Shown here: piece by piece, positions 789 to 57,608 of the stretch
How the letters are laid out: each line of letters opens with the position of its first letter
Position numbering within the stretch: the stretch's first letter is position 1
Origin: Candidatus Poribacteria bacterium
GTDB taxonomy: Bacteria > Poribacteria > WGA-4E > JAJDTR01
DNA: 64,000 bases
Assembly: GCA_965222225.1 (NCBI GenBank)
Contig: CBDCTK010000002.1
Span: forward strand, 2,656,001 to 2,720,000
Reading direction: 5' to 3'
Position numbers and translations under genes: made by a program
Notes under the pieces: model-generated
Told to the model about the DNA's origin: nothing
Database searches by the model: none
Seen by the model: only the letters and a program-made list of their open reading frames with translations

Positions 789-2456
789 TTACACGCGCAT
801 GACGACGGGCAGCACCATCGGACGGCGGTCGGTCTTTTTCGCGAAGAACCGGCGCAGCACAGTTCGTACCTCCGCCTGCACGGTTTCGGTCTCGCTCTTG
901 CTCTCCAAACTCATGTGATCTAGCGCATGAATGACGACGTTTTTGGCTTCGTTCATCAAGTCTTCCGATTCATCCATGTAGACAAACCCCCTGGAGACCA
1001 TGTCGGGTCCGTCGACCAAATCCCCGCTGTTGCTGTCTAGCACCGTAATCGGAATCACCATGCCATCTTGCGAGAGTTGATGCCGATCGTGGAGCACGAT
1101 GTCCTCAACCCCAAGATCGATATGTCCATCGACCAAGACGCGGCCTGCCGGGATCTTGTCTCGGATGTCGCACGAGTCAGGGGTAAGCAGCACACAATCT
1201 CCGTTCTCGGCAACGGTGATGTTTTCGTTCGGCACCCCTACTGTCTCGGCGAGTTCAGCGTGCTTAACGAGGTTGCTATATTCGCCGTGCATCGGTATGA
1301 AAAACTTGGGACGCACAAGGTTGAGCATCAATTTCAGGTCTTCCTGCGCCCCGTGTCCGGAAACATGAACGTTGGCATTTTTTTCGTTGAGAACGTGTGC
1401 GCCGCGTCGTAGGAGGTGGTTGATCATGTTGCCGACCGATCTTTCATTCCCCGGAATAATTCGGGCGGAGATAACGACGGTGTCTTCCGGCTCAACTCGC
1501 AAAAAGGCATGGTTGTCCAGCGCCATGAGCGCCATCGCGGAGCGCGGTTCACCCTGACTTCCGGTGCTCAAGACGGCGACCTCGTGCGGACTGAACTGGT
1601 GAACCTCGCGCGGGTTGATCAGCAAGTCAGGCGGCACGTTGAGGTATCCGAGTTCGGAAGCTGTACGGATGTTGTTGACCAAAGAGCGCCCGCTGACCGC
1701 AACCAGGCGGTGGTGCCTCTGCGCGAGTTCCACAAATTGTTGGATGCGGTGGAGACTTGAGGAGAAGGTGGAGAAGAAAAGCCGGTGCTTGACGTTTTTA
1801 AAAATTTGGTCGAGATCGTCATAGATGCTGAGTTCTGAGGGGGTCAAGCCGGGACGGTCGGCGTTCGTGCTGTCGGAGACGAGGAGCAGCACCCCTTTTT
1901 GGCCGAGCGCAGCCAGCTTGTGCATCTCCGTGAGTCGATTATCTCCAGGGGTGAGATCGAACTTGAAGTCGCCCGTATGAACAATGACCCCGACCGGCGT
2001 GTGAAGCGCAATCGCAACCGCATCGGGAATACTGTGGGTGACGTGGATGAATTCCATGTTGAAGCTACCGAGTTGCAGCGGTTCGTCGGGGGTGATGACG
2101 TTCAACTCCGCGTCCTTGAGGACATCGTATTCGCGCAGTCTTCCTTTCGCTATGGCGAGCGTCAACGCCGTGCCGTAAACAGGAGCGTTGATTTGACGAA
2201 GGAACAACGCAAGGGCGCCGATGTGATCCTCGTGCGCGTGGGTGAGGATGATTCCCCGTACTTTGTGCCGGTTTTCGATTAGATAGGTCAGATCCGGGAA
2301 CACCAGGTCTACGCCGGGCATGTCGGGTTCGGGAAACATTAGACCGGCGTCGATAACGATGAGATCCTCACCGTATTCGTACGCCATCATATTCAAGCCA
2401 AATTCCCCTAAACCGCCAATGGGAATGATTGACACTCCGTTTTCAGTTTCAGACAT
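789..2456 (-). CDS. rnj: Ribonuclease J
   Basis: 555 aa; GGLGEFGLNM, THAHEDHIG metallo-beta-lactamase motif, HSIPD, TGDFK, GSQGEP, HVSGH. Confidence 0.97.
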   Translation of the reverse strand: MSETENGVSIIPIGGLGEFGLNMMAYEYGEDLIVIDAGLMFPEPDMPGVDLVFPDLTYLIENRHKVRGIILTHAHEDHIGALALFLRQINAPVYGTALTLAIAKGRLREYDVLKDAELNVITPDEPLQLGSFNMEFIHVTHSIPDAVAIALHTPVGVIVHTGDFKFDLTPGDNRLTEMHKLAALGQKGVLLLVSDSTNADRPGLTPSELSIYDDLDQIFKNVKHRLFFSTFSSSLHRIQQFVELAQRHHRLVAVSGRSLVNNIRTASELGYLNVPPDLLINPREVHQFSPHEVAVLSTGSQGEPRSAMALMALDNHAFLRVEPEDTVVISARIIPGNERSVGNMINHLLRRGAHVLNEKNANVHVSGHGAQEDLKLMLNLVRPKFFIPMHGEYSNLVKHAELAETVGVPNENITVAENGDCVLLTPDSCDIRDKIPAGRVLVDGHIDLGVEDIVLHDRHQLSQDGMVIPITVLDSNSGDLVDGPDMVSRGFVYMDESEDLMNEAKNVVIHALDHMSLESKSETETVQAEVRTVLRRFFAKKTDRRPMVLPVVMRV

Positions 2457-45211: not shown

Positions 45212-46000
45212 TTAGTTGCTTGCTACTATCACGAGCACGAGAACAAAAGTCACAGCCATGAATCCCGCAATTACGAAACCAACCTCCCTTGGTTGTTCTG
45301 GAGGGGCGATTGCGGGCGTCGGAGGTGGTGGCGGTGGGCGGCCAAAAGTGACACCATTTTCAATTGCCTCGCCTTGCAGCATTACCATAATGGTTTCCGT
45401 AGTAGCGGGGTAGTATTGTATCCAGTGCGTTGACACCCCGGCCGGCAGGGACGTGGGATCAAAACTGTCGTAGTACAGATCGTAGGGCAGAGCTTCCTTG
45501 CGATGAAATTCAGTGATAATTGCACCGTGTTCGTAGGAACGATACGCATTAACCACCGCGGTAAGGATGTTTTCAGCCAAGGAATCTCCGTAGCTCTGAA
45601 GGGGTGTAGTGAGTCGGTCAATCTGTGCGCCTTCGCGCAAAGGTCCACCGTAGAACTTATACATCACATGGTCTAAGGGCAGGGGCTTTACGATTGAATT
45701 TGAAGCGTTAATAACCTGAATCGGGTTCAATCCTAACTCGTATGTGTCCTTGGTTTCATTCCGGCAGGAGGCGCCAATTCCAATGATGGCATTACTCGGA
45801 TTCCCAACTTGCCGGAATTCCGTGCAAATCAGTCCAAAGGTTAAGTCATGCGTCTCCAGCTTGCCAAGTTCTTGCATTCCTGTGTTCGATTCGTTTGGCA
45901 ACGTCCAAAGTTGCGATTGCCACTGTTTTACGTAGGGAGTGGAGCAGCCGATAGTTATAAGGGGAGTTACGAGTAAAATCAGTAGCGATATCCGTCCCAT
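45212..46000 (-). CDS. Hypothetical lipoprotein with Pro-rich linker and C-terminal membrane anchor
   Basis: Lipobox TIGC, PPPPPTP, hydrophobic C-terminus; AGGAG RBS. Confidence 0.72.
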   Translation of the reverse strand: MGRISLLILLVTPLITIGCSTPYVKQWQSQLWTLPNESNTGMQELGKLETHDLTFGLICTEFRQVGNPSNAIIGIGASCRNETKDTYELGLNPIQVINASNSIVKPLPLDHVMYKFYGGPLREGAQIDRLTTPLQSYGDSLAENILTAVVNAYRSYEHGAIITEFHRKEALPYDLYYDSFDPTSLPAGVSTHWIQYYPATTETIMVMLQGEAIENGVTFGRPPPPPPTPAIAPPEQPREVGFVIAGFMAVTFVLVLVIVASN

Positions 46001-46118: not shown

Positions 46119-46473
46119 CTAACGCTGCGCTTCCATGTACGCCCGCAAAACGGCGTTCATGCGGGTCTGGTAACCTCGACCTTGGGATTTAAACCACGCG
46201 AGTACGTCACTATCAGGGATTTCTATCGCACTCCTTATTCAGTCGCTTGATCGCAGGGAGATGGCGTGTTTGGGTTGGGGTATCACGACTTGGGCGTCTT
46301 TCCAGAATGCTTCATCGGTGGGTTGGGCGTCGGGGTCGGATGCCGCTGCTTCATCAATCTCTGCCTCGGTCACTGTGGAATTTCTATCGCACTCGTTATC
46401 CACTCGTTTGATCTGTTTGTGTGTCGTCGGGGACGTTATCGGAACTGTTGTCAGAGTAGGTGGTAACAGACAT
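46119..46473 (-). pseudogene. BrnA-family antitoxin disrupted by two hairpin-repeat insertions
   Basis: MSVTTYSD...DDTQTD [insert 46384-46413] TEAEIDEAAASDPDAQPTDEAFWKDAQVVIPQPKHAISLR [insert 46223-46252] DSDVLAWFKSQGRGYQTRMNAVLRAYMEAQR*. Confidence 0.85.
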
Positions 46474-46757: not shown

Positions 46758-47002
46758 AATTTGGGAGCCTCTGAATCAATCTTTGTCACGGAAATTACCT
46801 CACTGTAGGAGCGATCAAGTAAGCGAATAGCGCACGCGATAGAGATCTTCTCCAGGTCGCGATTCCCTACTAAATTATATCCGAAATTCAAGGTTCACGC
46901 AAGGATTTAGACCGCCCCGTATGCATGTCTCTGAAAGAAACCGAGTTTTGTGGAAAAAACTCGGTTTCGTTGAACGTCCGTTACTCCTGTAGGAGGAAGA
47001 AA

Positions 47003-48112
47003 ATGAACCAACTCACTATCTCGGACTACGGTACATCTCTCGGCAAACGCTCGGAGCGCGTCAGCGTGCGGTACCGCGGGGTGGCGCGAGAGAAAGAGGA
47101 GCACGCTCTCATGGATCTGGATCAGATTGTCATCGCCTCGCGCGGGGTTAGCTTGTCGTCAGACTTGATTGAAGCCTGCACCGAGCGCGGGATCGAAATC
47201 TCGTTTCTCAGTTTCAGCGGCAAACCGTACGCCAAACTCAACAGCCCTTCGTTGACGGCGACCGTCATCTCGCGGCGCGAGCAACTCGCCGCCTATCACG
47301 ATGAGCGCGGGGTAGAGATTGCCAAGCGGTTCGCGGCGGGCAAGTTGCGGAATCAGATAAACCTGGTGCGCTATTTCGGCAAGTACCGCAAGAAAAGCGC
47401 GCCCAAGAGGTACGACGAACTGGCGGAGCGGGTTACCAAGATTGAGGGACTGATGGGAGATATTCGTGCCCTTCAAGCGCCGAAGGATGAAGGCAACGGG
47501 GTGTCGCCGATTGACGCCGCCCGCCCGACGTTGCTCAACCTTGAGGGGCGGGCGGGGGCGCTCTACTGGGAGTGCGTGCAACGGCTGCTGCCTGCGGGGC
47601 GATTCACGACACGTGAACATCAGGGCGCTGCCGATGATGTCAATTCGCTGCTCAACTACGGATACGGGATACTCTACTCGCAGGTTTGGAGCGCACTCTC
47701 GCTGGCTGGACTGGAACCTTTTGCGGGTTTTCTTCATGTCGATCGCCCCGGCAAACCGTCGCTGGTGTTGGATTTCATTGAGGAGTTCCGCCAACCGATT
47801 GTTGATCGGGTGGTGTTTGCGATGATTAACAAGAAATTCAGGGTTGAATGGGATGAGCCGGATGACGACGCCGCCAAATCCGCGCACCAGTCGGCAAAGC
47901 CGGAAGCGGATACCGACGTGCAGACGCAGCGGTATCTGAGCAAGGGCACGCGGCGTGCGCTCGCCGACCGGGTGTTGGAACGGCTTCAGGAGACGGAGCG
48001 GTTCGAGCGAAAAGACCAGAAGTTGTGCAATATCATCCAAATTCAGGCGCGTCATCTGGCGATGTTCCTGCGCGGGGAGAGGGATTATCAGTCATTTGTC
48101 TGTAGTTGGTGA
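47003..48112 (+). CDS. cas1: Cas1 integrase
   Basis: GKLRNQ, EGRAGALYW, NSLLNYGY, GFLH, SLVLDFIEEFRQPIVDR; AGGAGG RBS before ATG 47003; contains an acidic low-complexity insert (EWDEPDDDAA...). Confidence 0.96.
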   Translation: MNQLTISDYGTSLGKRSERVSVRYRGVAREKEEHALMDLDQIVIASRGVSLSSDLIEACTERGIEISFLSFSGKPYAKLNSPSLTATVISRREQLAAYHDERGVEIAKRFAAGKLRNQINLVRYFGKYRKKSAPKRYDELAERVTKIEGLMGDIRALQAPKDEGNGVSPIDAARPTLLNLEGRAGALYWECVQRLLPAGRFTTREHQGAADDVNSLLNYGYGILYSQVWSALSLAGLEPFAGFLHVDRPGKPSLVLDFIEEFRQPIVDRVVFAMINKKFRVEWDEPDDDAAKSAHQSAKPEADTDVQTQRYLSKGTRRALADRVLERLQETERFERKDQKLCNIIQIQARHLAMFLRGERDYQSFVCSW

Positions 48113-48263
48113 GGGGCGGGAAACCGATCAACCGAGTGGATAACGAGCAGGATAAACTATCGCCTTCGCTATTCGCTCAGTTGATCGATAGAGATCCTTT
48201 TTTTCTTGAAAACTCGGTTTCTGCTGACCACTAGTCACTGAGCACTGGCAACTGTGTTTTGCC

Positions 48264-48515
48264 ATGCACACGTACGTCATCTACGACATCGTCGAAGATC
48301 GAATCCGCAAGAAGATTGCGGATGTGTGCCTCGACTACGGCTTGAAGCGGTTTCAATACAGCGCTTTCTTGGGTGACATCAACACAACGCGACGCCGGGC
48401 GTTGGATGCAAAACTAACGCAGGAATTTGGGGACGCGGAGGGAAAGATTGAAGTCCTCTCCGTGTGCGCGAAAGATTTCGACCAACGCATTGTTATCGGA
48501 GACGCCGAAAGATGA
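48264..48515 (+). CDS. cas2: Cas2
   Basis: YVIYDI..DRIRKKIADVCLDYGLKRFQYSAF. Confidence 0.95.
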   Translation: MHTYVIYDIVEDRIRKKIADVCLDYGLKRFQYSAFLGDINTTRRRALDAKLTQEFGDAEGKIEVLSVCAKDFDQRIVIGDAER

Positions 48516-49084
48516 ATATACGGGTCAGCGACATCAAGCAGTACTTCTACTGTCCGCGCGTGGTCTACCACACCTACTTCACTCCGGTGCACCGTCCGAC
48601 GACGCATCCGATGGAACTCGGCGCCCTCGAACACGAGGTATTGAGCGTCTTGGAGCGCCGCCGGACGCTTGCCCGCTACGGGCTTGAGGCTGGCAGCCGG
48701 AAATTCCACGTTTCGCTTCATGCCGAGTCGCTGGGATTGACCGGCGTGCTTGACCTGCTTATCGAGACCGAAGCCGGGGCGTTTCCCGTGGAGTTCAAGA
48801 GCACGAGACAACGACTCGACCTGAACGCGAAATGCCAGTTGACAGCGTACGCGATGATGGTGGAGGAGTGCCTCGGCGTCACGGTGGCTCAAGGGTTTAT
48901 CTATCGGATTCCCACGGAGCGAATCACGCCGGTGACGATTTCGGAGGGGCTGCGTGAGAAAACGCGCGGCGCGATTCGGGATATCCGACGAATGCTGTCG
49001 GAGGAGTGGATGCCTCCGCCAACGCCACAGCGCGGGAAATGCGTCGAATGCGAATTTCGGCGATTCTGCGCGGATGTGTTGTGA
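48512..49084 (+). CDS. cas4: Cas4
   Basis: QYFYCPR, GVLD, PVEFK, QLTAY, CVECEFRRFC; ATG overlaps cas2 stop. Confidence 0.95.
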   Translation: MNIRVSDIKQYFYCPRVVYHTYFTPVHRPTTHPMELGALEHEVLSVLERRRTLARYGLEAGSRKFHVSLHAESLGLTGVLDLLIETEAGAFPVEFKSTRQRLDLNAKCQLTAYAMMVEECLGVTVAQGFIYRIPTERITPVTISEGLREKTRGAIRDIRRMLSEEWMPPPTPQRGKCVECEFRRFCADVL

Positions 49085-49499
49085 GGCAGCCAACTAAAAT
49101 CGTTGTGTTTCGCAAATCCGTTTTCTGCGGAAAATGTGGGTCGATTTGCGAAATCTTTGTAAAAGCGTGAAACGCAGGCGGGACGCGAGATGCGCCTCTC
49201 TGTTCGCGGATAGTTGTGAATCTTGCGGAATGACGAGAGGGCTTTTCGCATTAATTTCACCCCTATTTTCGATAGACTGGGTCAAGGTTCTGCGTACTCC
49301 ATACGATGTTTGGGGACAAATCGGCTATTTTCGAAAATCCGCGCGTAAACCAGTCGAATACCCATGAACACTGAATTCTCAGCGCTTGTGCCGTTTGAAA
49401 TTGACAGGGCAACGCCGATGTGTCAAAATTACACGTATGATGTACAAACGCAGGTGGTTTCTGCGTTTGGAGGAGTTTCGGCTACTGATCGCGAGGTCG
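49085..49499 (+). promoter_or_regulatory. CRISPR leader
   Basis: Non-coding stretch between cas4 and the first repeat; contains TTGACA near 49401; the degenerate repeat is at the opposite end of the array. Confidence 0.7.
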
Positions 49500-49821
49500 G
49501 TAGCAACCATTGCCGCGATGAAAAGCGGACTGAAAGTGACAAACGTTGGATAATATGTTATACTATACTAGCAACGTAGCAACCATTGCCGCGATGAAAA
49601 GCGGACTGAAAGTATCACGCATCATGGTAGGGATTTTTCTTTGTGCGTGTAGCAACCATTGCCGCGATGAAAAGCGGACTGAAAGGATACAAAGAAGAGC
49701 CAACCAAAAGAGACATCGTCCTCGTAGCAACCATTGCCCCGACGAAAAGGGGACTGAAAGGTCGAAGTGGGACGGATATATATTTGATTGGTTGAGTAGC
49801 AACCATTGCCCCGATGAAAAG

Positions 49822-50018
49822 GATCAAGCGACCGGACAGGGAGCGCGATAGCGTTCCGTCAAATGACCGATTAGGGAGCGCGATAGCAAGCATGTAAGAG
49901 TTATCTGGGCGCCAACAGCGGCACCTAGCTCACGTAGTTACCTTTGCTCGGATGAAAAGGAATGTCTTCAAGTGGGACAAGAAGATTTCTATCGCATTCG
50001 CTATTCGCTCATTTGATC
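49822..50018. mobile_element. Hairpin-bounded cassette inserted in CRISPR repeat 5 (cargo type A)
   Basis: Starts GATCAA, ends TTGATC, flanked by duplicated CCCGAYGAAAAG. Confidence 0.85.
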
Positions 50019-50104
50019 CCCGACGAAAAGCGGACTGAAAGTGCTCAACGCGGATGTGCATATCGCTATTGAGCGCAGTAGCAACCATTGCCGCGATGAA
50101 AAGC

Positions 50105-51103
50105 GATCAAGCGAACGGATAGTGAGTGCGATAGAGATTCCATAGAGTTCCTTCAAGCGACCGGATAGGGAGCGATCAAAGGAATGAATAATGACTGCGA
50201 TAGAGATTTCATAGAGTTACCTCAAATGGAGTTACCTCAAGCGACCGATTAGGCAGTAAGGCTTTCTATCGCATTCGCTAATCGCTCATTTGATCCCCGA
50301 TGAAAAGCGATCAAGCGAACGGATAGTGAGTGCGATAGTAAATCCCGTGCGATAGAGATTCCATAGAGTTCCTTCAAGCGACCGATCAAAGGAATGAATA
50401 ATGACTGCGATAGAGTTCCGTCAAATGACCGATTAGGGAGCAGGGCTTTCTATCGCCTTCGCTAATCGCTCAGTTGATCCCCGATGAAAAGGATCAAGCG
50501 ACACCGGACAGGGAGCGATCAAAGGAATGAATAATGACTGCGATAGAGTTCCCATAGAGTTTCCGCAAGCGACCGATTAGGGAGCGGGCTTTTCTATCGC
50601 CTTCGCTATTCGCTCAGTTGATCCCCGACGAAAAGGATCAAGCGAACGGACAGTGAGCGCGATAGCAAGCATGTAAGAGTAATCTGGGCGCCAACAGCGG
50701 CACCTAGCTCACGTAGTTACCTTTGCTCGGATGAAAAGGAATGTCTTCAAGTGGGACAAGAAGATTTCTATCGCCTTCCCTAATCGCTCAGTATTCGTTC
50801 GGTTGATTGCTATTCGCTTGCTTGAGGGATAATCTATCGCGCTCCTTATTCAGTCGCTTGATCCCCGATGAAAAGGATCAAGGGAGCGAATAGCGACCGC
50901 GATAGCAAGCATGTAAGAGTTATCTAGGCGCCAACAGTGGCACCTAACTCACGTAGTTACCTTTGCTCGGATGAAAAGGAATGTCTTCAAGTGGGACAAG
51001 AAGATTTCTATCGCCTTCGCTAATCGCTCAGTATTCGTTCGGTTGATCGCTATTCGCTTGCTTGAGGGATAATCTATCGCGCTCCTTATTCAGTCGCTTG
51101 ATC
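50105..51103. mobile_element. Five consecutive hairpin-bounded cassettes in CRISPR repeat 6
   Basis: 50105-50295, 50309-50479, 50492-50623 (repeat-only type B), 50636-50863 and 50876-51103 (type A, 240-nt period), each separated by CCCGAYGAAAAG(C). Confidence 0.85.
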
Positions 51104-51333
51104 CCCGATGAAAAGGGGACTGAAAGAGCGGCTAGTACCCTGCCGACCCGTAGGCTGCTTTTGTAGCAACCATTGCCCCGATGAAAAGCGGACTGAAAGG
51201 CCACTTGCAGTCAATGAGTAAGCATAGAAAGCCAGTAGCAACCATTGCCGCGATGAAAAGGGGACTGAAAGTCGTGATATGCGGCGCGGCTGGGATATTA
51301 CAAGCTGTAGCAACCATTGCCGCGATGAAAAGC

Positions 51334-51541
51334 GATCAAGCGAACGGATAGTGAGTGCGATAGTAAATCCCGTGCGATAGAGATTCCATAGAGTTCCTTC
51401 AAGCGACCGGACAGGAAGCAATCAAAGGAATGAATAATGACTGCGATAGAGATTTCATAGAGTTACCTCAAATGGAGTTCCCTCAAGCGACCGATTAGGC
51501 AGTAAGGCTTTCTATCGCATTCGCTAATCGCTCATTTGATC
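51334..51541. mobile_element. Type B cassette in CRISPR repeat 9
   Basis: Near-copy of 50105-50295; same junctions. Confidence 0.85.
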
Positions 51542-51773
51542 CCCGACGAAAAGGGGACTGAAAGGCCCAACCGTTAATCTCTTTAATCGGCTTAACGCCA
51601 GTAGCAACCATTGCCCCGACGAAAAGGGGACTGAAAGCGCGCAGCATCAACGATCTCCAGAGCGAGAAGTTGCGTAGCAACCATTGCCGCGATGAAAAGC
51701 GGACTGAAAGTCCATAAAAAGTTAGATGATTCCATACCAAAATTATAGTAGCAACCATTGCCCCGACGAAAAG

Positions 51774-51935
51774 GATCAAGGGAGCGAATAGCGACCGCGA
51801 TAGCAAGCATGTAAGAGTAATCTGGTCGCCAACAGCGGCACCTAGCTCACGTAGTTACCTTTGCTCGGATGAAAAGGAATGTCTTCAAGTGGGACAAGAA
51901 GATTTCTATCGCCTTCGCTAATCGCTCAGTTGATC
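51774..51935. mobile_element. Type A cassette in CRISPR repeat 12
   Basis: Same cargo as 49822-50018; same junctions. Confidence 0.85.
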
Positions 51936-52255
51936 CCCGACGAAAAGGGGGCTGAATGCTTCCTAATTCATCTTGCGCCATCTCAATTGAAATCTGCCCT
52001 GGATGAATCCGTCTATGAACGCAGATTAGATGCCATCTTCTTCAGTTCAATCCCCTCAAAATAGGCGAATCCCATTACGACGCCAATGAGATCGCCGCAA
52101 TTCAAAATTGAACCAAGCATGCTGCCGAAACCCCTTTGAGGTCGTAGGCAAGCGGTTCCCCATGCGCATCTGCCACAAACTGCGCCGCTGGCCCCAGCAC
52201 CTGCTGCCAACCAAAAGGAAACCGAATCCTATGTATGAATCGCGGCGGTTTTTAA

Positions 52256-52284: not shown

Positions 52285-53487
52285 AGCGCCAACTCGGCGA
52301 TGCCGGTTAGAGATAGTCGCACACCTGTCGCTTCCGGTAATGAGCCGCCGAGAGGAAAATCCAATGTGTATTGTGTGCATTGCGTTCACCCGCGCATCCT
52401 CTAAATCTGTGCTATCAAAAGCTTCCACCGTCTTTGAAGAAGTGAACGCGCCTTCCGCGCATGGCGCTGAGTGTCAAACTTGTTCGCCTTTGCGCACGCT
52501 GTGTGACGCGAAATTAGTAATAAAACCTATGAGCAAATTGTCGAATCTGTGTCTAAACCGCTTTTCCGGTTCACCTGTTTTTGCCCCTTTTCCGCGTCGA
52601 ATTTGTCGGCACATGAGCGAATCTCGGTGGCATCCGGTCGCAGCGCCTGCCACTGTTTTTGGCAATTTTCGCAGTACGGCGGTGAACGAGGTAAAAGTTA
52701 TATTCGCAGTTTATCGCAGTTTATCGCACACTCAATCACGACGCCAAAACCATGTACGAAGCCACGCTACGACACGCTACGACGCAGTTCTCGAGTCGTA
52801 ACGCATTAACTGCGATACAGATTCCTCAAACCACTCTAGGATCAAGCGACCGATCAAAGGAATGAATAATGACTGCGATAGAGTTCCCTCAAGCGAGCGA
52901 TTAGCGAGTGCGATAGAGATCTTACTGCGATAGAAAATCCCGATAGTAGTTCCTGATAGAGCTCCCATGCGATAGTAGAGCCCGGCGCGAGAGCATTCCT
53001 AATAAACCCTCCCCAAAAAATATCCACTAACCCCTGCTTTTTTCATTGACCACATTACACATGTATAATATGATGCCGACCAAACGGATATACCGATGAA
53101 TGAATACCGTACTCCCCGCATTGCCAAACTGTCCTGCTCGAACGGATTAGGTCTTCGTCTATGTGCGCACCGTGACTTGACCTTCAAAACAACGATCTTT
53201 TTCTCTTGTACCTATTTTGTACCTATTTGCCGGTAGGTGAACCCGCACTATCAATGAAAACTACTGAAGCAAACAATGTGAGCACCCTCTCGAAATCGCC
53301 GCTCCGTTCACATTCCTGTACCTCTTTCTGGTGCGGTATTTTTACAGAAAATAGGTACAACCACCGCCTAACCCACCCCAAATGGGTGCTGGATCAACTT
53401 TTTTGTACACGCATTCGATCAATCAGCTAAAATCAACCGACTGGATGGCGTGCAGGATTTTTATCGCAGTCGATGTCTGTTCCTTTA

Positions 53488-53784
53488 GATCCTGTTTGAA
53501 AAGTACAGTTTGTAGGGTGCGATCAAAGGAATGAATAATGACTGCGATAGAGATCCCCTGCGATCAACTGAGTGGATAACGAAGGCGATAGTCTTGTAGG
53601 GTGGGATCAAGGGAGCGAATAGCGATCAAGCGACTGAATAAGGAGCACGATAGAAATCCCGTGCGATAGAGATCCTACAGGTATGTAGCAGCCAACAATT
53701 ATGTAGCAGCCAACAATGAAAACATGAAAAAACTTTCTACAAATGACCAAAAATGGCTTTGCCACCGATTATTCAAACAGGTTC
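53488..53784. mobile_element. MITE with IS5-family-like ends, filled with hairpin repeats
   Basis: GATCCTGTTTGAA ... TTCAAACAGGTTC flanked by TTA; the same right end recurs at 57398-57410. Confidence 0.6.
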
Positions 53785-57266: not shown

Positions 57267-57608
57267 GAGGCATGGGTGAGTGGAGGTCGCGATCGGGAGA
57301 GGGATCTCTATCGCGCTCATTATTCATTCGCTTGATCGCAGGGGATCTCTATCGCAGTCATTATTCATTCCTTTGATCGCACCCTACAAGATTATTATTC
57401 AAACAGGTTCTTAGTCTCGGTTGAGATCACAAATCGCTGGACACGATCACGGATTTATAATAGAATACAACTTCGGGATTGCCTCGTGTCTGAGATGGAC
57501 TATTGTGTTTTCAAAGCATTGATTTGCGCGCGGGATAAGGGCGAGAGGAAGCAAATCTGCCGTTGTAATTTTTGCATTCATTAGATATATCAATTGTTGA
57601 GGAGGAAT

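What the first reader, a model, noticed from the sequence alone, without database searches (positions are those of the whole stretch)
49887..49990. Type A cassette appears to carry a captured spacer plus half of a CRISPR repeat
Seen: four near-identical cargos (near 49887, 50666, 50906, 51804). Each has AAGCATGTAAG (resembling the repeat 3' end AAGCGGACTGAAAG), then 35 nt (49899-49933, normal spacer length), then GTAGTTACCTTTGCTCGGATGAAAAGG. That last part matches the first 27 nt of the repeat at 22 positions and stops exactly at the insertion junction. Inference: hairpin insertions in adjacent repeats of an older or different array mobilised the spacer between them, giving a route to copy spacers without Cas1. 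Alternative: the 35-mer folds on itself (CTGGGCGCC/GGCACCTAG) and may be an element-specific hairpin, with the repeat-like part serving as target homology.
Basis: partly seen in the sequence, partly recalled or inferred. Interest (0 to 1): 0.82.

Follow-up and report, generated by a model that had tools for sequence, protein, structure and literature searches.

The report
Old repeat fragment inside array-dwelling hairpin element
A small mobile hairpin element that lives only inside CRISPR repeats of sponge-associated Poribacteria carries, as a fixed passenger, a fossil of half a CRISPR repeat and the 35 bases that lay before it; it is a relic of an earlier insertion, not a working way of copying spacers.

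Summary
Four near-identical 102-nt cargos lie at 49887, 50666, 50906 and 51804. Each has a 35-mer followed by a 27-mer that matches the first 27 repeat positions at 22 sites and ends at the insertion point.

The cargo is not a local or recent capture. The same cargo, 94% identical, sits in two repeats of a Poribacteria genome of another family whose repeat has a different 5' part. Diverged relatives sit in repeats of four further genomes, so all 11 copies found are inside CRISPR repeats. No array using the 27-mer as its repeat was found, and the cargo matched nothing in phages or plasmids. The 11-nt piece said to resemble a repeat 3' end is an element motif, because it also occurs in cassettes without repeat-like content.

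The element arms are the genome's 30-nt REP-like unit. About 750-1100 copies exist, and inverted copies flank an IS200-like Y1 transposase gene.

My reading is that this is a composite hairpin element that enclosed an older junction between a repeat half and an element. The 35-mer may be a former spacer, but it has no processing hairpin or handle upstream, so it cannot work as one.

One result is unexplained: the 35-mer varies more than the rest of the cargo.

The parts
49500..51958 (+). CRISPR array downstream of cas1-cas2-cas4. It has 13 repeats of 37 nt, four of them interrupted (at 49796, 50078, 51307 and 51748). The leader promoter-like site is at 49401-49429.
49822..50018 (+). Cassette A1, inserted after repeat position 26. 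Left arm 49822-49851, an extra arm-like module 49852-49886, cargo 49887-49988, right arm 49989-50018.
49887..49898 (+). 12-nt start motif of the cargo. It is also found in A' cargos and, slightly changed, in G003 and G005 cassettes. It is an element motif, not a repeat 3' end.
49899..49933 (+). 35-mer of spacer length. It is the only variable part of the cargo and matches nothing elsewhere.
49934..49960 (+). 27-nt fossil of repeat positions 1-27, matching the repeat at 49796 at 22 of 27.
49961..49988 (+). 28-nt tail with a conserved 6-bp hairpin (49964-49969 pairs with 49981-49986). It does not fit the REP-unit profile.
50019..50041 (+). Repeat positions 15-26 present a second time (50019-50030), followed by the repeat's 3' part (50031-50041). 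Together with the element's last base this rebuilds the repeat hairpin.
50105..51103 (+). Five cassettes in tandem inside one repeat (repeat start 50078): B 50105-50295, B' 50309-50479, C 50492-50623, A2 50636-50863, A3 50876-51103. Each is followed by the 12-nt duplicate.
50666..50767 (+). Cargo copy 2 (35-mer 50678-50712, repeat fossil 50713-50739).
50906..51007 (+). Cargo copy 3 (35-mer 50918-50952, repeat fossil 50953-50979).
51334..51541 (+). Cassette B3 without repeat-like cargo, at the same position of the repeat that starts at 51307.
51774..51935 (+). Cassette A4 in the last, degenerate repeat (repeat start 51748). Cargo 51804-51905, 35-mer 51816-51850, repeat fossil 51851-51877.

Best explanation
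The cargo is a fixed inner segment of a non-autonomous hairpin element.

Arms. They are inverted copies of the genome's 30-nt REP-like unit. That unit occurs about 750-1100 times, has its own covarying mini-hairpin, and flanks an IS200-like Y1 transposase gene in inverted pairs.

Where it lives. One sub-family of these elements lives only inside CRISPR repeats of one repeat family of Poribacteria. It always sits after repeat position 26, and positions 15-26 are present again at its right end, so the repeat hairpin and the 8-nt handle for the next spacer are rebuilt.

Origin of the 27-mer (inferred). It is a fossil of the left junction of an earlier insertion, that is, a repeat 5' half cut at the insertion point. 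It was enclosed when an arm lying about one spacer length upstream became the new left end, giving a composite or nested element. The 35-mer is whatever lay upstream of that repeat; a former spacer is the natural candidate but is not shown.

Spread. Since then the whole cassette has spread as a unit within arrays, between arrays and between families.

What is shown and what is inferred. Shown: the homology, the fixed junction, the array-only distribution, and conservation across genomes. Inferred: the order of events, the enzyme (the Y1 transposase acting in trans, or recombination through the flanking repeat halves), and that the cargo has no present role as a spacer.
For: - Four copies exist, all in this array.
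- The 27-mer matches the repeat at 22 of 27, beyond all shuffles, and ends at the junction.
- The same cargo is in G015, in repeats with a different 5' part. Identity is 96 of 102, against 95 of 126 for the cas4 end and 249 of 375 for the leader.
- Relatives exist. A'' in G007 has a half repeat at 18 of 26 to its host repeat but no 35-mer. A' has 4 copies in 3 of 176 genomes and is colinear with A, global z about 6.
- All 11 copies lie in repeats.
- G005 has an internal fossil junction.
- B and C cassettes lack the 27-mer yet sit at the same site.
- Arms: 749 exact-frame units, four covarying pairs and tandem G.A pairs. Inverted units flank the Y1 gene.
- An orthologue was found in 3 of 4 unit-rich genomes and not in the unit-poor G010.
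- The repeat hairpin is rebuilt at the right junction.
Against: - The 28-nt tail after the 27-mer does not fit the REP-unit profile (p 0.76), so for type A the 'element' side of the fossil junction is not recognisable.
- Variation is concentrated in the 35-mer: 5 of 35 against 0 of 67 sites among the four copies, p 0.004; 8 of 35 against 2 of 67 among six copies. This suggests the 27-mer and tail are under constraint and are not a neutral relic.
- No array with this repeat version was found in 176 Poribacteria genomes, 185,579 species genomes (exact pattern) or the metagenome collection.
- The 10-12-nt duplication is unusual for Y1 transposases.
- The Y1 gene of G015 has no unit within 1.5 kb, and G021 has 215 units but no hit with this query.
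Confidence: 0.6

Rival explanations
1. The repeat-like 27-mer, with the tail hairpin, is a working part of the cassette. It could be a recognition or homing site for the enzyme that inserts the element into repeats, or a binding site for a protein that also binds the repeat's 5' part. On this view it is kept by selection and is not a decaying relic.
For: - Substitutions avoid it: 0 of 67 sites outside the 35-mer vary among the four copies, against 5 of 35 inside; 2 of 67 against 8 of 35 among six copies.
- The tail hairpin is paired in all 5 distinct sequences across three cargo types while its loop varies.
- The cassette family is found only in repeats.
Against: - B and C cassettes without it sit at exactly the same position.
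- The A' cargo has no significant repeat likeness (p 0.05-0.98) yet is also in repeats.
- Over longer times the 27-mer decays about as fast as the 35-mer (A against A').
- The copies are kin, so the Fisher tests overstate.
Confidence: 0.2
2. Elements in adjacent repeats mobilise the spacer between them, and this acts as a working, Cas1-independent way of copying spacers into other repeats, where they give immunity.
For: - The 35 nt is of spacer length.
- The 27-mer is repeat-derived and cut at the junction.
- The cassette has moved between arrays and genomes.
- A second cassette type with an internal fossil junction exists in G005.
Against: - There is only one 35-mer lineage, with no variety of captured spacers.
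- Upstream of the 35-mer there is no repeat hairpin and no proper 8-nt handle. The 11-nt motif is shared with cassettes that hold no array material.
- The 27-mer lacks the 3' strand of the hairpin.
- The cargo has no match in phages, plasmids or 176 Poribacteria genomes.
- A'' lacks the 35-mer altogether.
Confidence: 0.05
3. The cassettes do not transpose. One ancient insertion into a repeat spreads to other repeats and arrays by recombination or gene conversion through the flanking repeat halves. The internal half repeat arose by a misaligned exchange or a deletion between neighbouring interrupted repeats.
For: - The junction is identical in all 20 places found.
- The two copies of positions 15-26 often differ from each other and from the host repeat type, for example in the repeats at 49796 and 51307 and in G015.
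- Intact repeats with mismatched stems occur at 51163 and 51235.
- Arrays of the genus are mosaics of repeat variants.
- Cargo orientation is the same in 11 of 11 copies.
- Cassette polymorphisms are shared between G000 and G015 copies.
Against: - Homology arms would be only about 13-26 nt, shorter still in G015, whose repeat 5' part differs.
- Five cassettes of three kinds sit in tandem in one repeat, which looks like repeated entry into a regenerated target.
- The arms belong to a family tied to a Y1 transposase.
Confidence: 0.3
4. The likeness of the 27-mer to the repeat is chance or convergence.
For: None beyond its shortness.
Against: - It matches at 22 of 27 and begins at repeat position 1.
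- 0 of 500 shuffles and 0 of 2000 shuffles reach the score.
- In 5.7 Mb the only other sequence within 5 mismatches is a native repeat.
- A'' independently keeps 18 of 26 positions.
Confidence: 0.02

Closest known systems
IS and MITE insertions inside CRISPR direct repeats (59 cases curated in PMC4852346; passages read)
   Same: Small non-autonomous or autonomous elements sit inside the repeat sequence and split arrays. A short duplication flanks them.
   Different: - Here one element family occupies one fixed position of the repeat in 8 of 176 genomes.
- It comes in tandem sets, rebuilds the repeat hairpin, and its arms are a REP-like unit.
- One cassette lineage carries array material inside. 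No such cargo is described in the passages I read.
REP/REPIN elements with their RAYT (Y1, IS200-like) transposases (features recalled from the literature; RAREFAN preprint passages read)
   Same: - A short unit is present in hundreds of copies.
- It is an imperfect palindrome with covarying stem.
- A conserved four-letter head lies upstream.
- A Y1 transposase gene is flanked by inverted units.
   Different: - Most units here are single, not inverted doublets (536 of 773 clusters).
- REPINs are not known to me to target CRISPR repeats or to carry cargo.
- A 10-12-nt duplication is not expected of Y1 enzymes.
- Clade membership of the transposase was not tested.
IS200/IS605-derived palindrome-associated elements (recalled)
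   Same: Insertion is directly 3' of one fixed short motif, in one orientation, with hairpins near the ends. The right end finishes with a copy of the target motif, so it looks like a duplication.
   Different: Those elements have no long inverted arms. The mechanism here is untested.
Composite transposons and Pack-MULE-type capture of host fragments (recalled)
   Same: Two element ends enclose a piece of host DNA, which then travels with the element as a passenger.
   Different: Here the captured piece is part of the element's own target, a repeat half plus the upstream 35 nt, and the elements are about 160-230 nt.
Integron cassette arrays (recalled)
   Same: Several hairpin-ended cassettes stand head to tail at one recombination core that is regenerated after each entry.
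   Different: No integrase is nearby, the core is the loop of a CRISPR repeat, and the cassettes hold no genes.

Membership tests
CRISPR repeat-derived sequence (the 27-mer) | Significant likeness to the repeat family, in register from repeat position 1 | tested here: met
   It matches the repeat at 49796 at 22 of 27. 0 of 500 shuffles reach the score for three repeat variants, and 0 of 2000 against its own junction.
CRISPR repeat-derived sequence (the 27-mer) | An array that uses this version as its repeat exists somewhere | tested here: not met
   - At up to 3 mismatches in 159 genomes of the order, only cargo copies and one chance hit were found.
- The exact degenerate pattern found only the G015 record in genome contigs.
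- It found 0 in metagenome contigs.
Working spacer unit (spacer between two processable repeats) | Repeat hairpin and 8-nt handle directly upstream of the spacer | tested here: not met
   Upstream lies an element arm plus a 12-nt motif. The last 13 bases match the repeat end at 6 of 13 (my count), and the motif is shared with cassettes lacking array material.
Working spacer unit (spacer between two processable repeats) | Complete repeat with both stem strands downstream | tested here: not met
   The likeness ends at position 26/27, and the next 28 nt are unlike the repeat's 3' part.
Working spacer unit (spacer between two processable repeats) | A matching target (protospacer) in a virus or plasmid | tested here: inconclusive
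   No match in 50,697 phage records, 72,556 plasmid records or 176 Poribacteria genomes.
REP/RAYT system (the arms) | Short unit in hundreds of copies spread over the genome | tested here: met
   765 units, 1126 with looser matching in 773 clusters, 749 in exact frame.
REP/RAYT system (the arms) | Imperfect palindrome kept by covariation | tested here: met
   Pairs 7-23, 8-22, 11-19 and 12-18 are Watson-Crick in 73-94% of 749 units, with 3-4 pair types each. Tandem G.A pairs lie between them.
REP/RAYT system (the arms) | Y1 transposase gene flanked by inverted units | tested here: met
   L001 holds PF01797 at 1.5e-23, with units at 1338-1367 (+) and at 1965-1994 and 2062-2091 (-) around the gene at 1384-1857. 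L005 is likewise flanked. The orthologues' loci in G012 and G015 do not show this, and G004 shows one unit only.
REP/RAYT system (the arms) | Conserved four-letter head upstream of the unit | tested here: met
   It lies within 20 nt upstream in 219 of 749 units against about 4% expected, with a peak at offset -9.
REP/RAYT system (the arms) | Transposase belongs to the RAYT clade rather than to IS200 proper | not tested
   Only the Pfam family was scored; no tree was built.
MITE of a DDE transposon | Terminal inverted repeats with an identical target-site duplication and both orientations in use | tested here: not met
   - The inverted arms are present.
- The two copies of positions 15-26 differ in several insertions.
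- Cargo orientation is the same in 11 of 11 A-family copies.
- Unit doublets outside arrays show no flanking duplication in the 33 I listed.
Repeat-mimic RNA decoys (solitary repeat units, RNA anti-CRISPR; recalled) | Carries the repeat's hairpin | tested here: not met
   The 27-mer lacks the 3' stem strand. The cargo alone folds no better than shuffles (z -0.09).

The most novel reading that the evidence does not exclude
Repeat-homing hairpin cassettes are vehicles that carry pieces of CRISPR arrays (a spacer plus a repeat half) from array to array and across Poribacteria families without Cas1-Cas2. On this reading the conserved repeat-like part is a working homing or recognition module rather than a relic, so that these elements shape, and perhaps seed, array content.
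Probability: 0.1. Interest if true: 0.8.

Novelty: new variant of a known kind. Interest (0 to 1): 0.5.

Why it matters
Mobile elements inside CRISPR repeats are known. A family that is specific to one position of a repeat is a different matter, especially one that rebuilds the processing hairpin, stacks in tandem, is shared between bacterial families living in the same sponges, and has swallowed a piece of an array. It shows that CRISPR arrays can themselves be a habitat for parasites. It also shows that array fragments can travel horizontally as passengers.

It offers a testable link between REP-type units with their Y1 transposases and CRISPR repeats, which share the plan of a four-letter head followed by a hairpin.

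It also warns annotators that such arrays are split or missed by standard finders.

As a way of gaining immunity it has no support.

Tried and rejected
**Searches for a source array**
- The 27-mer (its first 26 bases) was searched in 61 relatives, 159 genomes of the order, genome contigs and metagenome contigs.
- Only cargo copies appeared. One 3-mismatch hit in G046 lies in ordinary non-array sequence.

**Search for a protospacer**
- BLAST of the 104-nt cargo against phages and plasmids found no match at E up to 1.
- Against 176 Poribacteria genomes, 8 genomes had matches at E up to 0.01. G000, G015 and G007 are cassettes.
- The other five genomes have 19-25-nt matches. I read only the G084 one, which is not in an array.

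**Start motif search**
- 41 places were listed. In the context I printed, 9 are cassettes and the rest show no array context. A control pattern also hit.

**Tests that gave nothing**
- Leader likeness of the cargo's first 50 nt: not significant, p 0.17-0.99.
- Tail as a decayed arm, by a profile of 749 units: not supported, p 0.76.
- 35-mer hairpin: no compensatory change.
- Cargo RNA fold: z -0.09.
- Rfam: nothing in the window.
- Promoter or terminator scan: nothing in the cassettes.
- The 262-aa ORF at 45212-46000 (-): no family, and it looks like a membrane-anchored protein, not a transposase.

**Sequencing runs**
- Contigs of two RNA libraries cover cassette parts at depth 3-13, but not the array's own spacers.
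- DNA can be present in such libraries, and the contigs may come from related strains, so this is neither proof of transcription nor of its absence.
- No joint showing an empty site was among the 15 listed; 56 more were not shown.

**Literature**
- Searches found no paper on REP-type elements in CRISPR repeats or on captured array fragments.
- I read passages only of the RAREFAN preprint and of PMC4852346. All other papers were seen as listings only. Supplements were not available.

Full report
**Setting.** The window is G000:C2:2656001-2720000 of a 5.7-Mb, 49.8% G+C genome in two contigs. A relative carrying the same cassette is a record titled 'MAG: Candidatus Poribacteria bacterium', so the organism is a member of the Poribacteria. 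Upstream of the finding lies a type I cas operon: cas6, cas3, an unnamed large gene, a Csa2/DevR-type cas7, a weak cas5, then cas1 at 46925-48112, cas2, and cas4 at 48464-49084. A promoter-like site is at 49401-49429. The array runs from 49500 to 51958 with 13 repeats of 37 nt. The repeat has a 13-nt 5' part, a 4-bp stem with two covarying versions, an 8-nt loop and an 8-nt 3' part. From general knowledge of type I systems, Cas6 cuts at the 3' foot of such a hairpin and leaves the last 8 nt as the 5' handle of the next crRNA.

**The observation.** Four repeats are interrupted, at 49796, 50078, 51307 and 51748.
- In every case the insert begins after repeat position 26.
- It starts and ends with inverted 30-nt arms.
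- It is followed by a second copy of repeat positions 15-26 and then the rest of the repeat.
- With the element's last base, this second copy rebuilds the hairpin.

Four inserts carry the same 102-nt cargo, at 49887, 50666, 50906 and 51804. They differ from the first copy at 0-3 sites. The cargo consists of a 12-nt start motif, a 35-mer, a 27-mer and a 28-nt tail.

The 27-mer equals the repeat at 49796 at 22 of 27 positions. In the whole genome nothing else comes within five mismatches except the four cargo copies. Shuffle tests give 0 of 500 and 0 of 2000. The likeness begins at repeat position 1 and ends at the insertion point.

The 11-nt piece said to resemble the repeat's 3' end is the exception. 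It matches poorly, 6 of 13 without gaps by my count, and it has another explanation given below.

**What the arms are.** The arm is a strictly 30-nt unit found 765 times with a strict pattern and 1126 times in 773 clusters with a looser one. Most clusters are single units: 536 singles, against 33 simple inverted doublets.
- In 749 in-frame units, positions 7-23, 8-22, 11-19 and 12-18 form Watson-Crick pairs in 73-94%, with three or four pair types each.
- Two constant G.A pairs separate them. The unit is therefore a small imperfect palindrome kept by covariation.
- A four-letter head identical to the first four bases of the CRISPR repeat lies within 20 nt upstream of 219 of 749 units, against about 4% expected, most often at offset -9.

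The genome has five matches to the IS200-like Y1 transposase family. The best is a 157-aa gene, PF01797 at 1.5e-23. It is flanked by one forward unit 17 nt from one end and two reverse units about 110 and 200 nt from the other. A remnant, L005, is flanked the same way.

Orthologues at 72-83% identity occur in G004, G012 and G015, which hold about 700, 224 and 218 units. None was found with this query in G010 (4 units) or in G021 (215 units). This is the signature of a REP/RAYT-type system as I recall it from the literature. Two caveats apply: the orthologues' loci in other genomes are not flanked in this way, and the transposase's clade was not tested.

**The cargo elsewhere.** The decisive result is that the cargo is not private to this array.
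- G015 belongs to another family of the same order. Its array has repeats that share the hairpin and 3' part but differ in the 5' 13 nt. Two of its repeats hold the same cassette at the same position.
- Cargo identity between G000 and G015 is 96 of 102. The cas4 3' end is 95 of 126, the leader 249 of 375, and the arms 24 of 29 and 23 of 26.
- The left junction was found in 8 of 176 Poribacteria genomes at 20 places: G000 and six more of the ten genomes of its genus, plus G015.

Two relatives of the cargo turned up in those arrays.
- A' has 4 copies in G004, G009 and G001. It has the same start motif, the same end and nearly the same length. Its middle is only weakly alike: global alignment z is about 6, and the core alone gives p about 0.01. 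Its likeness to any repeat is not significant.
- A'' has 1 copy, in G007. It has an arm, 8 nt, a half repeat matching its host repeat at 18 of 26 (null maximum 15), and a tail colinear with that of A. It has no start motif and no 35-mer.

All 11 copies of the three types lie inside CRISPR repeats and in the same orientation relative to the repeat. Contigs of two further studies' DNA runs carry the type A cargo with 0-1 differences.

*Capture.* The 27-mer is repeat-derived and cut at the insertion point, which is what a fossil left junction would look like. A cassette in G005 gives a clearer case. Inside it, about 33 nt after the left arm, lies a weak half repeat (15 of 26, not above the null), directly followed by a sequence that matches the native junction across the insertion point at 13 of 15, p 0.0115. 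Nested or composite cassettes that enclose an older junction therefore exist.

- The start motif also opens the A' cargo and occurs, slightly changed, in G003 and G005 cassettes. It stays nearly unchanged between A and A' while the 35-mer region does not. It is an element motif, not a decayed repeat end.
- There is one 35-mer lineage only, with no variety of captured spacers.
- No array with this repeat version exists in what I could search, and the cargo has no match in phages, plasmids or Poribacteria genomes.
- The 35-mer has no hairpin or proper handle upstream and only half a repeat downstream. By the known rules of type I processing it cannot give a crRNA.

*Hairpin plus target homology.* The proposed 9-bp hairpin in the 35-mer has one constant mismatch and no compensatory change. 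Three of its four variable positions break pairs. Cassettes B, B', C and B3 lack any repeat-like part (12-14 of 26, within the null) yet sit at the same position. The 27-mer is therefore not needed for targeting.

**What remains odd.** Among the four copies, all five variable sites fall in the 35-mer: 5 of 35 against 0 of 67, Fisher p 0.004. Among the six copies including G015 the figures are 8 of 35 against 2 of 67, p 0.003. The copies are kin, so these tests overstate, but the pattern suggests that the start motif, the 27-mer and the tail are constrained.

In the tail, a 6-bp hairpin is paired in all five distinct sequences of the three cargo types. Two one-sided changes keep pairing while the 10-11-nt loop varies freely. 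The tail does not fit the REP-unit profile.

Two of the variable sites in G000 copies carry the letters fixed in G015. This points to exchange among cassette lineages.

**How it most likely works.** I take the cassette to be a composite hairpin element. An inner element once sat in a repeat. An arm about one spacer length upstream became the new left end. The enclosed stretch (start motif, 35 nt, repeat half, remains of the inner element) now travels as a passenger.

Spread is either by the Y1 transposase acting in trans or by recombination through the flanking repeat halves.
- For transposition: the arms are its REP-type units, orientation is fixed, entry is directly after one fixed motif, and tandem stacking occurs at a regenerated target.
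- For recombination: the two copies of positions 15-26 often differ from each other and from the host repeat, intact repeats with mismatched stems occur at 51163 and 51235, and the arrays of the genus are mosaics.

I put these at about 0.45 and 0.3, with the rest unknown. Because the right junction rebuilds the hairpin, the insertion should leave processing of the downstream crRNA intact and give the upstream one a long 3' tail. This is inference and was not tested.

**Comparison and novelty.** Insertions of IS elements and MITEs into CRISPR direct repeats are documented: 59 cases in PMC4852346, of which I read passages. I found no paper on REP-type units in CRISPR repeats or on cassettes that carry array fragments (full-text searches of the held library only). 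I file this as a new variant of a known kind. Its core observation is real and points to an unusual, array-specific mobile element family.

**Limits.**
- RNA evidence is contigs only.

Noticed in passing
window 49822-49851 and genome-wide (for example window 46215-46258, 48119-48192, 52845-52923, 53514-53660, 57300-57384): The 30-nt unit that forms the element arms is a REP-like family of about 750-1100 copies. It has a covarying mini-hairpin: four pairs with 3-4 pair types each, separated by two constant G.A pairs. A four-letter head lies about 9 nt upstream of many units. Units also sit between the cas genes.
   Followed up: partly
G000:C2:3080372-3080716 (L001 1384-1857, minus strand), outside the window: A 157-aa IS200-like Y1 transposase gene is flanked by inverted copies of the 30-nt unit. 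A remnant at L005 is flanked likewise. Orthologues at 72-83% identity are in G004, G012 and G015.
   Followed up: partly
window 50078-51126: Five cassettes of three kinds stand head to tail inside a single repeat. Each is followed by the same 12-nt copy of repeat positions 15-26, like cassettes at a regenerated recombination core.
   Followed up: partly
window 51163-51199 and 51235-51271: Two intact repeats combine the 5' stem strand of one repeat version with the 3' strand of the other, which gives a mismatched stem. They may be scars of excision or of exchange between repeats.
   Followed up: no
G000:C2:1309656, 1310409 (minus strand); 5055004, 5058827, 5059529, 5059745, 5087195 (plus strand); loci L091, L092: Seven solitary copies of a related 37-nt repeat (same loop and 3' part) lie outside any array. 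Some bracket ORFs of about 180 aa with no Pfam family, and the two 180-aa ORFs are not alike.
   Followed up: partly
L014/L021 (G004), L016/L022 (G009), L015 (G005), L023 (G003): Arrays of the same genus mix repeat variants with different 5' parts side by side. They hold cassettes mostly near the trailer end. The array lies between cas4 and a glutamate dehydrogenase gene, as in the window.
   Followed up: partly
window 49964-49986 and homologous places in L007, L061, L031, L032: A 6-bp hairpin followed by three T is conserved in the tail of all three cargo types, while its loop changes freely. Its role is unknown.
   Followed up: partly
window 49907, 49909 and equivalents in the other copies; L007 1474, 1476: Two polymorphic sites among the G000 cargo copies carry the letters that are fixed in the G015 copies. 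This suggests exchange or shared ancestry of cassette lineages across families.
   Followed up: no
L074 (G009) about 1509-2760: One interrupted repeat in G009 is followed by about 1.1 kb of non-array DNA before the next repeat-like left junction. Larger pieces can therefore sit between element ends in arrays.
   Followed up: no
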